Assembly (NCBI GenBank): GCA_964016885.1
Contig: OZ024753.1
Location: 44,020,001-44,084,000 of the forward strand
Reading direction: 5' to 3'
From: Eledone cirrhosa
Taxonomy: Eukaryota
DNA length: 64,000 bases
Position numbers and translations under genes: made by a program. This document shows, piece after piece, positions 13,811 through 41,101 of this stretch; the stretch's first letter is position 1, and the number at the start of each line of letters is the position of its first letter. The notes below the pieces were generated by a model. The model saw only the letters and a program-made list of their open reading frames with translations. It was not told the origin of the DNA and did no database searches.

Positions 13811-14174
13811 ATATTAATAAAAGAACGGTGGTATATTCAGTTAGTTCAGGTTTATTTAAACCTCTGTTTAGATATCCTGAGCTCTTCAGACAGCAAAACC
13901 TAAAATAAACATTGAAAGTTCCTAATAAACATTTAAATTTGGAAAACTCCAATAATTTCCATAAAAAAGATTTTCTTTTCATGATACATGGTGTACGGCT
14001 GGCACCATGTCTCATGGAAGGAAAGTCTTTATTAGGAACTTTCAATGTTTATTTTAGGTTTTGCTGTCTGAAGAGCTCAGGATATCTAAACTGATGATCC
14101 TCAGTGAAATATGTATCACAGAGATTTAAATAAACTTGAACTAACTAATATGGCCTCCGATCTTTTATTAATAT
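13811..14174 (+). mobile_element. Fold-back Penelope-like element with HHR in right arm
   Basis: Inverted arms 13811-13929 and 14029-14174 around a ~100-bp spacer, TA-flanked. The left arm lacks 28 nt of the HHR. Confidence 0.75.
14064..14121 (+). ncRNA. Type I hammerhead, minimal stem III
   Basis: CTGT-CTGAAGA-GCT c AGG..CCT c AGT-GAAA-TATGTA-TC-ACAG; predicted cut after 14117. Confidence 0.75.
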
Positions 14175-14203
14175 ATATATATATATATACATATATATAT
14201 ATA

Positions 14204-14544
14204 TCATCATTCATCATCATTTCATTTTACGTCCGCTTTTTCCCTACTTGCAAGGGTGGGACGGGAACTGGTTCTGGCTTGATTTCTACAGTTGGATGCC
14301 CTTCCTAACACCAACCTCATTTACAGTGGGTGCTGGGTGCTTTTTTGCCGTGGCACCTCCACGACCACTTTGCAGTGGAATGATATGGACCCAGTCCCTA
14401 TCATCTCATTTCTACAGCTGAGTAAACTGGAGCAATGTGAAATAAAGTGTCTTGCTCCAGGAAACAACACATCACCCGACCTGAATTGAACTCCCAACCT
14501 TTCGATTGCAAGGCCAATGCTCTAACCACTAAGCCCTGTGCCTC
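14204..14544 (-). mobile_element. SINE-A copy
   Basis: Reverse complement of 5812-6140. Confidence 0.9.
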
Positions 14545-14602
14545 TCTCTCTCTCTCTATATATATATCTATATATCTATATCTATATATATATATATATA
14601 TC

Positions 14603-14790
14603 GGAAAAGAGTCAGGACCCTGACGGCTGAGCTCCGGCCATTTCGACAGCTGTTCAGGCCTAGCTGTTGAAATGGCTGGAGCTCAGCCATCGGGGTCCTG
14701 ACTCTTTTCCTATTTCCCACTCTACTACCCTAAGTATTGAGCACTTTGGTGCGTTATGGCCCAACTGGTTCCTTACCACACCTTCTTTCT
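14603..14790 (+). mobile_element. Family P fold-back element
   Basis: Near-perfect palindrome 14603-14710 containing GAAA-TGGCT ggagctc AGCCA-TC-GGGGTC, then the tail. Confidence 0.75.
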
Positions 14791-15624
14791 TATATATATA
14801 TAAAGTAAATCTCTCCAAATTCCTGATTATTTCCAATATTATTTGAAAACCATATGTAGTGTCTTACATCAGAAATATAGTAACTGTTGGTTTAATACTC
14901 TACGAACTTGCAGAATAAGTTTTCTAGCCACTGTATATAGTTTTGCAACAGAAATTCTATCTGTTCTCATATAAATGAAATCATGTGCATAGCACCAAGT
15001 GTCTTGCTTCTTAAGCATTATATGCTGCCAATGCCTGGCCTTTGATATTATGACCTTTTTGCTTAGCCATAAGCACTCGGTTATTTTCTCTGATATTTAT
15101 ACTTGTATGTATATTATGCTAAAAACAGAATGTACAAGCAAGATGTAGGAGGGCAGTAACTCCAAATAAAAACTGACAAAGAACATGATAACCCATTTGA
15201 ACCATGGCGGCATGAAAACCAAACATAAAATACTGCTGCCAATGATAATAATAATAATAGTATGCACACAAATGTTTATGTATATTCATACTGTTATAAT
15301 TAAGGTACATGGATGGAGGAATTAAAAAGAAAAACTGTATTTAGAATTTTCCATGCCTTTGTGGAAGGTTTTCAAATGAGAAGACATAACTTCAAAAAAT
15401 CAGAATGCAAGTATATCCAAAATGTTTGATCATTTGAGAGCGACCTCCATCAGAAATAGGAAATCACAGCCTGGAAAAAATATCAGCTAGTGCTATGAAA
15501 TGAGGCTTCCATTATAGACAAAGAACTACAGAGGAAACGACAATAAAAGGGTTTGTATATAGAAGCTAAATAGTAACCACAGATCTGACTTAAGTAGAAT
15601 AGGGATAAGATTTCTGAAATTGCA

Positions 15625-16175
15625 TATGTATATATATATATATATATATATATATATATATATATATGTATATATAGGTATATATATATATATATATATA
15701 TATATATATATGTATATATAGGTATATATATATATATATATATATATATATAATGTATATATATATATATGTATATAGGTGTATCTATATATATATGTGT
15801 ATATAGGTGTATCTATATATATATGTATATATAGGTGTATATATATATATATATATATAATGTATATGTGTATAATGTATATAGGTGTATATATATATAA
15901 TGTATATAAGTGTATAATGTATATAGGTGTATATATATATAATGTATATCGGTGTATATATATATATATATAGGTGTATGTGTATATATGTATCATGTAT
16001 ATAGGTGTGTATATATATATGCATGTGTTTGTGTAAGTATATATATATATGTGTGTTTGTGTTTGTGTATGTGTATATATATATATATATATATATATAT
16101 ATATATGTCTGTGCGTATGTATGATTATATATATATATATATATATATATGCATATATATGTGTGTGTGTATATA
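15625..16175. repeat. (TA)n compound microsatellite
   Basis: Direct reading. Confidence 0.95.
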
Positions 16176-16268
16176 TAGGTGCAAGCTTGACTGTGTGATT
16201 AAGAAGTCTTATGCAATTATATAGTTCTGTGTTCAATCCTATTACATAGCACTTTGAGTATTTTGTCC

Positions 16269-16437
16269 AACGCTCTACCGATACTGCCAATCCACCACTC
16301 TGTTTTGAAATAGTAATTGTTTCCAATTTTGGCACAAGGCCAGTAATTACCCCAGTACATTACTGGTACTTTATTTAATCGACCCCGTAAGGATGAAAGG
16401 CAAAGTTAACCTTGGCAGGATTTGAACTCAAACTGTA
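16269..16437 (-). mobile_element. SINE-B partial copies
   Basis: Head and body fragments of SINE-B in reverse orientation. Confidence 0.7.
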
Positions 16438-17318
16438 AATGCAAATGCAAAGTAGGAAGTTTCAAGTTTAAACTAAGTACTGCATATATGTAAAAAAACA
16501 ACAATTACCTATTTATGTGTGAAGTTAAAACAGATTTGAAGTGTGAGCTCATTCTGTTATTCCTTCAAAATACACTAAAATAATATACAAAAATATGCAA
16601 CTGTACAGAGAAAATGGCTTTACAGACTCAAAACACACAAATAACTGTAGATTAGATAAATATAGTAAATACTTCATTACCACATTAAAGGAGATTAATA
16701 TTATAGTCACCATGAATATATACACAGTTAACTTTCTAGTCATAACATGAAATCTAGAGAGCAGTAAATATTAACAATACAGAAAGTCTGAAAAAAAAAA
16801 TAAGCTCATGTATATAAATAAAGTTTTTATCCTCTTAATATAATAATAGCGAGCAAACTTCAAAGGCTGAATTAGAATTAACACTCAGTTGACCAAACAT
16901 AATTGCAGGCTACAAAGAAACCTGTTCTTTTAATGGTTAAATGATTTCATAGATAATTGATTTCTTTAAGGAAATCAATTATCCATGAAGTGAAGGTAAC
17001 ACCTCAAGCGGAAACCAAATTATGTTATGTCTATTTCTGCAAAGGTAGTTTTAAAGGCCGTTTCCTCAAACCTTATATCCACCTTCCGGAATGAAGGGAA
17101 AAAACCCCATAAACTTATCCAGATATGAATGTTTAAAAGACTATTGTTTTGACTGTTGAAATATCTTCTGGTCAATCATTGAATGTAGAATACCCTTTTA
17201 TAAATGAAACAAGAAAGCAAAGCAATACCAACTATGCCCTTTATGAGAACAAATTCTAGTAAGCCACAGCAGCAAAATAGAATCTGATTGACCTACTGGA
17301 TGGTAGACAAATGAGACT

Positions 17319-17448
17319 AGGGTCATATTTATCAGTGGGTGGAAGGGGCCCTGGGCACCACATGTCAAACAGGGCTCTCTCATGAAACAGCCCTGGCACC
17401 CACAAACCTGAACTGTCTCAGGCTCCACAAGGTCTACATATGTCCCTG
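17319..17448. mobile_element. Putative hAT-like MITE
   Basis: Imperfect TIRs TAGGGTCATATTTAT ... CTACATATGTCCCTG; no clear TSD. Confidence 0.35.
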
Positions 17449-39419: not shown

Positions 39420-39544
39420 CATATATTTTGATTATGTGAATGTATCCATTTATTAATATTTTGAATAATATATATATATATATATATATATATATATTCT
39501 TCAATGTCTTGGATTTGTTATTGCTTGTATGGTATGTAATTAAC

Positions 39545-39602
39545 CTTTATGCTCTGATGAGTCCCACTTATAGTGCGGATGAAACAATGTTAGCAAGTAA
39601 AG
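39545..39602 (+). ncRNA. Type I hammerhead, minimal stem III
   Basis: CTTTA TGCT-CTGATGA-GTCC CAC ttata GTG c GGAT-GAAA-CAATG-TT-AGCA ag TAAAG; predicted cut after 39591. Confidence 0.8.
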
Positions 39603-39654
39603 ATATGCATATGCTATAGGCGTTCTTTGTTATTTATTATATATATATATAGTA

Positions 39655-39872
39655 ATAATAATAAAATTGAAGACTAAAATCCAAAGAGGGCTCGATAAGG
39701 AAAATATATATCAAATATATAAGAACCGAAGAGCAAATATTTATTAAAATAACAGATTAAAGTTTAAGCAAAGAATCGCTGCTTTCACCCTTAATGCGTT
39801 TCAGAAGATCCTGTTAAGGGTGAAAGCAGCGATTCTTTGCTTAAACTTTAATCTGTTATTTTAATAAATATA
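39655..39872 (-). mobile_element. Family Q fold-back element; inverted arm carries the CAGAAGA hammerhead (+ strand 39798-39846)
   Basis: GTTT-CAGAAGA-tCCT gttaa GGGt-GAAA-GCA gcgattctt TGC-TT-AAAC. A further fragment lies at 38846-38907. Confidence 0.75.
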
Positions 39873-40463
39873 TATATATATATATATATATATATATATA
39901 TATGTGTGTGTATATAAACTTCTAACTATGCATGTAGTAATCCTGGACAGAGAGAATAACCTTTTCTCAAACACACGCACACACTTATATATATTAAGAT
40001 GGAAAACTTTATGTTGATCACCAAGGGTGTATCATATAAAATCTACAGCACTTAACTCCTAATTACTATTCTGATCATATATTTTAGCTAAAACAAAACA
40101 CATCATCAATGTGTGATTTAATGACTTTAGTTAATACTGAGTAAAATGCCAACATGTACAGCCTGTTTTATATTCCTAATCCCACTTGCTGTTGACTGTA
40201 AAGGAAACTACGTGTCTGACGTTTCAAGCCCATTACTTTACATCAAAATCTGTGCCTTGAATTTAAATAGAAGATATGATTAAATTAAAGTGATTTTTGC
40301 TGTGTGTGTCCATTTTGTTTTCATCAGGTACATTAAAATGGATGCTTTTTTCAAGGGAAGTAACTCTCCAATTAACGTGATTTACAATGTGTAATCTTTG
40401 TTTGTTCATCGTCTGTGGAACACTAAAAATATTTGCACTGAATTAAATAATAAAATGATGTGC

Positions 40464-40600
40464 GGAACTAGCTGTTGAAATGGGAATAGCTCAGCTGTCG
40501 GGTCCCAACTCTTTATAATATAACCATACTCTATTATCCCAAGTATCGAGTACTCTGTTGAGTAATGATCTAACCAGTTTCAAACCGAATCTATCTTAAT
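40464..40600 (+). mobile_element. Degenerate family P copy
   Basis: CTAGCTGTTGAAATGG..GCTCAGCTGTCGGGTCC..AAGTATCGAGTACTCTG. Confidence 0.55.
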
Positions 40601-40607
40601 TTATATA

Positions 40608-40783
40608 CAGTGAAATTCCGTTATAACTAAATTCATGGGATATAAAAAAAAATTTGTTGTAACGATAAATTCTCTATAACGACATTGACCAAACACATCC
40701 AGTGTTTGGCCGGGTGTTGAAAAAAATTTCTTTATACTGAAAAATTTGTTATAATGGTATTCATTATAGTGGAATTTTACCTG
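40608..40783. mobile_element. Tc1/pogo(Tigger)-type MITE
   Basis: TA|CAGTGAAATTCCGTTATAAC ... ATTATAGTGGAATTTTACCTG|TA. Confidence 0.65.
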
Positions 40784-40890
40784 TATATATATATATATAA
40801 ATAATGAGTTATTTGGTTTGTTGATTATTCAACAAAGTTAATTTTACAACAGATTAGAAGCACTCAACGGCATTTATCTGGAGTATCATT

Positions 40891-41101
40891 AATATCAATA
40901 ATATTAATAAATGGAAAATATCTTTATGAAACCGTATATATTTTATTATACGTATTTCAAGGGTACTAATACTATCTTTACACCAATTATTATATTTTAT
41001 CTGATGAAAGCGTACTTAAATATTAGTATCCTTGAAATACGTATAATAAAGTAAATATGGTTTTATAAAAATATTTTCCATTTATTAATATTATTGATAT
41101 T
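40891..41101 (+). mobile_element. Fold-back element containing a hammerhead at 40995-41051
   Basis: Arms 40891-40972 and 41022-41101. HHR reads TTTTAT-CTGATGA-AAG c GTACT..AGTAT c CTT-GAAA-TACGTA-TA-ATAAAG. Downstream text is homologous to the 39358 copy. Confidence 0.85.

What the first reader, a model, noticed from the sequence alone, without database searches (positions are those of the whole stretch)
14064..41051. HHR lineage with covarying stem II, conserved C-C mismatch and palindromic stem III
Seen: the HHRs at 39358, 40995 and 14064 (and decayed 37241) share one layout. The first 3 bp of stem II covary (GGA/TCC, AAG/CTT, GCT/AGT) and are always followed by a C-C mismatch and more pairing. 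Stem III is self-complementary TATATA, TACGTA or TATGTA. Compensatory change argues for selection on structure. Established: minimal PLE HHRs with palindromic stem III cleave as dimers. Inference: the C-C mismatch may be a tertiary-contact element, and TATATA also mimics the genomic target.
Basis: partly seen in the sequence, partly recalled or inferred. Interest (0 to 1): 0.7.

Follow-up and report, generated by a model that had tools for sequence, protein, structure and literature searches.

The report
Penelope hammerheads keep one unpaired cytosine
The four motifs are stubs of a known kind of jumping gene whose predicted self-cutting RNA motif occurs over 100,000 times in this genome; across its lineages one cytosine stays unpaired while the pairs around it swap, so it is likely a recognition point, but the 'C-C' pair itself and the 'TA target mimic' idea do not hold.

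Summary
The three motifs are real type I hammerheads (4 strict hits vs 0.005 in shuffles). They lie about 50 nt from the 3' end of Hydra-clade Penelope-like elements; the genome holds 114,603 pattern matches (control 121). Stems I and II and the stem III palindrome covary. Three corrections: (1) only the 5' C (position 10.4) is invariant (28 of 28 clusters); its partner is C, U (a group of about 25,000 copies) or A (the family of the 37241 copy), and G only in scattered copies; (2) the first stem II pair does not covary; (3) stem III is no target mimic: TGCGCA and TGATCA families also end in (TA)n, and only 236 copies run from stem III into (TA)n. Best reading: a dimer-type ribozyme whose unpaired C is likely read base-specifically, most likely by the element's own protein, and which keeps the junction helix marginal (about 6 kcal/mol predicted). 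Cleavage and binding are untested. I found no such C in 82 published PLE hammerhead rows except one C-A example. The scan has noted this on other DNA of this genome at least five times.

The parts
14064..14121 (+). Type I hammerhead motif: stem I CTGT/ACAG, core 14068-14074, stem II 14075-14105 with C14078 opposite C14102, stem III A-TATGTA-T, predicted cut after C14117
13811..14170 (.). Head-to-head stub between (TA)n runs; left arm 13863-13934 is the reverse copy of 14023-14094 (96%) and lacks the 3' half of the hammerhead
37241..37291 (+). Decayed hammerhead (core at 37245; U16.1 changed to C, stem I first pair broken); C37255 opposite A37272, typical of its 240-copy family
39358..39419 (+). 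Type I hammerhead motif: stem I TTTTAT/ATAAAA, core 39364-39370, C39374 opposite C39398, stem III A-TATATA-T, predicted cut after A39413
39326..39469 (+). 3' stub of the element around the 39358 motif, ending at (TA)n 39468-39497
40995..41051 (+). Type I hammerhead motif: stem I TTTTAT/ATAAAG, core 41001-41007, C41011 opposite C41030, stem III A-TACGTA-T, predicted cut after A41045
40784..41102 (.). Head-to-head stub: left inverted arm 40784-40971 (starts inside stem II, carries the tail), right arm 40971-41102 ending at (TA)n

Best explanation
These are type I hammerhead motifs at the 3' end of Hydra-clade Penelope-like retroelements, predicted to cut only when two copies pair through their palindromic stem III, and their invariant unpaired cytosine at stem II position 4 is likely a base-specific recognition point, most likely for the element's own RT-endonuclease protein. 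Shown: layout, copy number, covariation, sense orientation about 50 nt before the element end, two copies 3.3-4.4 kb apart in tandem elements, invariance of C10.4 with a partner of C, U or A. Predicted: the mismatch costs about 6 kcal/mol and leaves the three junction pairs marginal, so the RNA alone would fold poorly. Inferred: protein binding at the C would stabilise the junction and allow cleavage only inside the element's ribonucleoprotein, so that uncut RNA remains the main template for insertion.
For: C10.4 in 28 of 28 clusters, the only one of 46 non-core columns with no change on a flank-based tree; other stem II columns change 4-9 times (mean 6.4; Poisson P 0.0016, 0.07 if corrected for 46 columns). 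Unselected samples: 61 of 64 bystander motifs, 22 of 24 in 454 kb taken by position. Searches aimed at non-C copies (3,533 and 1,388 matches) showed scattered variants of C families in the 200 listed rows; T was the commonest change (about 60 of 100 rows, hand count), yet no U-led family was seen, whereas C to U on the other strand founded a group of about 25,000 copies: identity, not just mismatch, is kept. Proteins of the carrier families are only 40-68% identical. No invariant G in 22 stem I and flank columns. Folding: median ddG -6.2 kcal/mol and junction-pair probability 0.40 to 0.98 when the partner is G. The one PLE hammerhead tested with its protein cut only when the protein was added, and catalytic mutants still inserted (PMC11167929, section 3 part 2 read). 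Copies end 43-60 nt past the cut site, so they were not copied from RNA cut at the 3' motif.
Against: No cleavage, binding or expression data. The protein-assisted result is from a Poseidon-clade element with another hammerhead. The 28 clusters are not all independent (several singletons are one lineage), the tree is a neighbour-joining tree of short AT-rich flanks, and 44 of the 173 clustered motifs came from searches that forced the C. Absence of a C-G family is weak by itself: position 11.4 changed only 3 times and C to G is 341 of 4,828 non-C cases. Several insertions carry C-G or A-C in both arms (L176, L178, L179), so single jumps seem to tolerate loss of the feature (or arms were converted). 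C at this position, paired with G, is already common in published Hydra rows (16 of 26), so part of the conservation may be older than the mismatch. One motif with G-C at position 4 and a TGCACA stem III (L252) may be a counter-example. The 14068 and 41001 families were tied to a Hydra ORF only weakly (one upstream endonuclease piece in L393; flank likeness for 41001).
Confidence: 0.45

Rival explanations
1. C10.4 is an RNA-RNA tertiary contact: it docks on stem I, on the backbone or on the partner motif of the dimer, and replaces the loop 1-loop 2 contact that minimal PLE hammerheads lack.
For: Stems I and II lie side by side in the active fold and contact through loops or bulges (PMC3088659 and PMC6155905, passages). 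The long stem II has no short loop near the core; stem I pairing falls after 4 bp (26 of 28 at pair 4, 16 of 28 at pair 5), level with the mismatch.
Against: No invariant or covarying base in positions 2.1-2.10 or 1.1-1.12 (best 22 of 28); C-C and C-U families share the same stem I (TTTTAT/ATAAAA). A backbone contact would not show in this test.
Confidence: 0.27
2. The mismatch is only a brake: any non-pair that weakens the junction helix keeps cleavage slow enough for full-length RNA to survive.
For: About 6 kcal/mol predicted cost; partner may be C, U or A; first pair also loose; uncut RNA is the template in vitro.
Against: A brake would allow U-C or A-C families; C to T is the commonest change seen at 10.4 but no such family appeared in 28 clusters.
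Confidence: 0.13
3. The C is kept for a reason outside the ribozyme (DNA promoter base in the pLTR, overlapping signal) or simply by descent.
For: pLTRs hold promoters (PMC6765202 passage). C is frequent at this position in other Hydra rows. Corrected P is only 0.07.
Against: Neighbouring bases on both sides change freely and in compensating pairs, unlike a DNA motif; carrier proteins have diverged to 40-68%.
Confidence: 0.12
4. Stem III TATATA mimics the (TA)n target and guides insertion.
For: TA-type palindromes are the majority (71,824 matches) and the elements insert in (TA)n.
Against: Families with TGCGCA/TGTGCA (27 of 42 copies) and TGATCA (16 of 29) reach (TA)n 30-120 nt downstream just as TA-type ones do (60 of 108); only 236 C-C copies run from stem III into (TA)6, against 63,463; the palindrome covaries away from TA.
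Confidence: 0.03

Closest known systems
Hammerheads of Hydra-clade Penelope-like elements (Craig et al. 2021, PMC8557442; section 11, passages and File S1/S2 read)
   Same: Type I, sense strand, near the 3' end; U-U or loose first stem II pair; short stem I; (TA)n insertion; carrier protein motifs.
   Different: All 26 Hydra rows have a paired fourth position (16 C-G by my reading) and short stem II; none has the unpaired C, and their stem III is 3-4 bp with a 1-3 nt loop rather than a 6-nt palindrome.
Minimal and small-helix-III hammerheads of metazoan PLEs (Cervera and de la Pena 2014, PMC4209133; parts 1-2 of 4 and supplement parts 1-2 of 3 read)
   Same: pLTR location, long helix II, short helix I, palindromic helix III, many covarying families per genome, low dimer-dependent activity. 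Drosophila willistoni row has a 6-nt palindrome and a U-U first pair (my reading of PDF text).
   Different: Consensus has an extra base and G10.1-C11.1 with a continuous helix II. Of 56 rows one (S. purpuratus 1) reads C-A at the fourth pair and one (Clonorchis 2) U-U; no conserved mismatch is described. Supplement file 1 could not be searched.
Protein-assisted hammerhead of Poseidon PAc (Frangieh et al. 2024, PMC11167929; passages and section 3 part 2 read)
   Same: PLE hammerhead upstream of internal RT start sites; one-sided tail.
   Different: Other clade and stem II; no recognition base identified.
Dimer-cleaving small PLE hammerheads (Lunse et al. 2017, PMC5785218)
   Same: Dimer mechanism as cited in the review PMC6765202 (passage).
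   Different: Paper not held; I could not check whether its alignments hold this variant.

Membership tests
Type I hammerhead ribozyme | Core CUGANGA, GAAA, UH at a three-way junction open at stem I | tested here: met
Type I hammerhead ribozyme | Stems I and II supported by compensatory change | tested here: met
   (pair 10.1-11.1 excepted; detection required some pairing)
Type I hammerhead ribozyme | Match to an Rfam hammerhead model | tested here: inconclusive
   none in the 150 of 284 rows shown or in 14 rows
Type I hammerhead ribozyme | Self-cleavage | not testable with these tools
   no assay
Canonical type I hammerhead with loop 1-loop 2 contacts | 4-bp stem II with short loop and conserved U1.7 | tested here: not met
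   stem II 14-44 nt long; U1.7 in 17 of 28 clusters
Dimer-type PLE hammerhead | Unstable, self-complementary stem III | tested here: met
   palindrome pairs 26, 28, 28 of 28; hairpin +4.7 vs duplex -2.2 to -10.5 kcal/mol for intact palindromes
Dimer-type PLE hammerhead | Two copies in one transcript unit | tested here: met
   tandem pLTRs in L037, L266, L267, L274, L177; window copies are single stubs
Hydra-clade PLE | RWK-type, DKT, CxCX5C, CxxC and CxH motifs; C-terminal GIY-YIG-like domain; no DKG, no CX2-5CxxC | tested here: met
   L270 ORF, 800 aa; RWK exact in L268 and L177
Hydra-clade PLE | Insertion into (TA)n; inverted 5' copy; tail on one arm | tested here: met
   exactly one tail in 41 of 51 inverted-pair rows
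Hydra-clade PLE | Length under 3 kb | tested here: not met
   units of 3.3-4.4 kb; the paper says 'generally short'
Hydra-clade PLE | Placement in an RT tree with published Hydra proteins | not tested
   published proteins were only compared by eye
Non-LTR retrozyme | Short tandem repeats each with a hammerhead | tested here: not met
   window copies are dispersed stubs; no such array

The most novel reading that the evidence does not exclude
This lineage turned a paired C-G at the end of stem II into a displayed cytosine that the retroelement's own reverse transcriptase-endonuclease reads to switch on its ribozyme: a protein-gated hammerhead with a one-base handle, which would explain why PLE hammerheads are sluggish alone and yet kept.
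Probability: 0.25. Interest if true: 0.7.

Novelty: new variant of a known kind. Interest (0 to 1): 0.4.

Why it matters
What PLE hammerheads do is open: they cut poorly alone, one needs its protein, and catalytic mutants still insert in vitro. A single invariant unpaired base, in young elements with intact 800-aa ORFs and over 100,000 natural variants, gives a clean handle to separate catalysis, folding and protein recognition. Searches that demand a continuous helix II would also miss this very large set.

Tried and rejected
Rfam gave no hammerhead row among those shown. Pfam gave no RT or GIY-YIG hit for the ORFs; 18 unnamed homologues at 29-38% identity added no names. No RNA holder listed, so no reads were laid. 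Metagenome scan: 53 pattern matches, 0 of 53 with stems I and II. Stem III starting with A, C or G: 2,327 matches vs control 1,807, mostly an unrelated repeat. A fixed 5' start of the shorter arm near the motif was looked for in 51 inverted-pair rows and not seen. Apparent non-C families proved to be internal matches within 44-nt stems of C-C motifs or chance. Linking window families to ORFs: 9 of 40 upstream stretches had Hydra protein matches; clear for the GGA group (L404, L406, L422), weak for the GCT family (L393). No Hydra ORF piece in the window. Paper searches for 'C-C mismatch' + 'stem II' + 'hammerhead ribozyme' and 'unpaired cytosine' + 'hammerhead' + 'retrotransposon' gave 0 papers; searches listed nothing on this variant. 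Lunse 2017 and Martick and Scott 2006 are not held. R-scape is not available; the count of structure pairs does not correct for relatedness.
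Full report
OBSERVATION. The motifs at 14064, 39358 and 40995 are as described: CUGANGA core, three pairs, C opposite C, 4-5 further pairs, GAAA, a 6-nt palindrome between A15.1 and U16.1, and a 4-6 bp stem I. A strict scan found 4 motifs in the window (the fourth, at 39554, is of another type) against a mean of 0.005 and a maximum of 1 in 200 block-wise dinucleotide shuffles; 3 with C-C against 0. The copy at 37241 (core at 37245) has lost U16.1 and the first stem I pair, and has C opposite A.

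GENOME CONTEXT. With a TAYRTA stem III and a free spacer of 18-38 nt there are 71,824 matches in the 3.0-Gb genome; 63,463 have C opposite C (reversed controls 74 and 1). A wider pattern that allows any 6-nt stem III and any partner but G gives 114,603 (control 121); longer stems II exist (44 nt), so this is a lower bound. The motif lies on the sense strand 43-60 nt before (TA)n, or 120-210 nt before it when the arm carries a tail. In 41 of 51 inverted-pair rows exactly one arm has the tail. Between tandem or inverted copies lie ORFs of up to 800 aa with RW, DKT, YRDD, CxCX5C, a C-terminal GIY-YIG-like domain, CxxC and CxH, and without DKG or CX2-5CxxC. These are the marks given for the Hydra clade of Penelope-like elements (PMC8557442 section 11). 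No tree with published proteins was built. The window holds only stubs. The group of the 39358 motif is tied to a Hydra ORF in L404, L406 and L422; the 14064 family by one upstream endonuclease piece (L393); 9 of 40 stretches had any match. The 40995 stub matches ORF-bearing families in its flanks.

COVARIATION. On 20 chosen rows (3 window motifs, 17 family representatives) with the textbook structure imposed, 90% of cells pair (shuffled 69.3%), 83 cells change on both sides (27.7; 0 of 500 shuffles) and sliding controls fall to 23-48%. RNAalifold alone recovers stems I and II with the gap at position 4 and no stem III hairpin. These controls ignore relatedness and my detection required some pairing. 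In 28 clusters built from flanks and distal stem only (173 of 212 motifs; 39 fetched as deliberate mutants were dropped), pairs 10.2 and 10.3 hold in 27 of 28, but 10.1-11.1 in 19 of 28, as in shuffles. U-U at that place is common in published Hydra rows and known to be tolerated (PMC3088659 passage).

THE MISMATCH IS ONE C. Position 10.4 is C in 28 of 28 clusters; 11.4 is C in 24, U in 2, A in 2. Genome-wide, 29,174 matches have C opposite A or T (control 195), mostly one family with C-U and stem III TGCGCA; subtracting the TAYRTA share leaves about 25,000. The family of the 37241 copy (240 matches) has A in about 87 of 100 listed rows (hand count). C opposite G occurs 341 times, scattered over families. 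Non-C at 10.4 occurs 3,533 and 1,388 times (controls 54, 287); the 200 listed rows were variants of C families, internal matches or chance, T being commonest (about 60 of 100, hand count). Unselected checks agree: 32 of 32 unforced hits, 61 of 64 bystanders and 22 of 24 motifs in 454 kb taken by position (16 C-C, 5 C-U, 1 C-A; 2 T in CpG context). On a neighbour-joining tree 10.4 is the only one of 46 non-core columns without change; other stem II columns change 4-9 times (Poisson P 0.0016; 0.07 corrected). Carrier proteins are 40-68% identical. Against: clusters are partly redundant; 11.4 changed only 3 times, so 'never G' is weak; some insertions have C-G or A-C in both arms; L252 has G-C with a TGCACA stem III. 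The lead that only one C is fixed came from note e1-9529214; searches are my tests of it.

STEM III. The palindrome covaries: TATATA, TATGTA, TACGTA, TGATCA, TGCGCA, TGTGCA, CATGTG (8,396 further C-C matches starting T[CGT], control 41). The intramolecular hairpin is unfavourable (+4.7 kcal/mol) and the double-hammerhead fold is predicted more stable than the monomer in 31 of 31 rows (30 distinct; median 6.3 kcal/mol per motif). That such motifs work as dimers is published (PMC4209133; review passage). Target mimicry fails: non-TA families also end in (TA)n and only 236 copies run from stem III into (TA)6. The TA-rich junction is at the element end, about 50 nt downstream.

MECHANISM. Shown: structure, place, invariance. 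Predicted: a G partner would add about 6.2 kcal/mol and raise the junction-pair probability from a median 0.40 to 0.98, so the lineage keeps a costly defect. Because the C keeps its identity while its partner does not, and no partner base is fixed in 22 stem I and flank columns, I infer base-specific recognition by something outside the local RNA. The element's protein is the best candidate: the PAc hammerhead cut only with protein added, and uncut RNA was the main template. Copies here extend past the cut site, in line with that. The bulged C of the iron-responsive element is a recalled analogy, from no call. Confidence 0.45; RNA contact 0.27; brake 0.13; non-ribozyme cause or descent 0.12; target mimic 0.03.

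COMPARISON AND NOVELTY. It works like a dimer-type PLE hammerhead and its carrier meets the Hydra motif tests. None of 26 Hydra rows has the mismatch; 16 have C paired with G there, as does a 4-nt-palindrome family in this genome, which suggests that the G was lost as the helix grew (inference). Of 56 metazoan rows one reads C-A at the fourth pair. Two targeted searches gave no paper; Lunse 2017 could not be read. The bioRxiv retrozyme paper (parts 1-2 of 5 read) and PMC7229834 (passages) do not describe it in what I read; the latter reports 126,247 hammerheads in the far larger axolotl genome. Verdict: new variant of a known kind, interest 0.4. The scan has reported the same feature from at least five other places in this genome; those notes are not independent support.

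Noticed in passing
window 39550-39595 (+): Hammerhead of another type: 4-bp GTCC/GGAT stem II then C opposite C or a bulge, stem III ACA-A-TGT like published Hydra rows; stub 39496-39651 has a 99% copy in L086.
   Followed up: partly
window 46108 (-) and 54672 (+): Two motifs of a third family (extra base, continuous 6-bp stem II, GAAC in stem III); the 54672 copy has the U3-A8 core. The 46108 copy sits at the centre of an inverted repeat.
   Followed up: partly
window 37758-37856 and 39737-39862: Near-perfect long hairpins set in (TA)n without a hammerhead.
   Followed up: no
L040, L148, L014, L024 downstream of the motif: The tail begins with ACTCC just after the TA-rich end junction in unrelated families.
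   Followed up: partly
L187 852-936, L066 76-159, L185: Families with 38-44 nt stem II, some holding a second core-like CTGAAGAG or CTGATGA inside the stem.
   Followed up: partly
L175, L275: Tandem hammerhead-bearing pLTRs about 3 kb apart with no Hydra ORF found: possible non-autonomous derivatives.
   Followed up: no
L217, L219, L322: Short hammerheads with U-U, three pairs ending in C-G or G-C, and a CTAG palindrome: the ordinary Hydra-like form in the same genome.
   Followed up: partly
L292, L315: Hammerhead family with a 7-nt stem III insert (CCACTGG) and A-U at position 4.
   Followed up: no
L193 4110-4229: A second core-like copy starts directly after the cut site: local duplication of the motif.
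   Followed up: no
window 38451-38508: tRNA-like match (36.9 bits), probably the head of a SINE.
   Followed up: no
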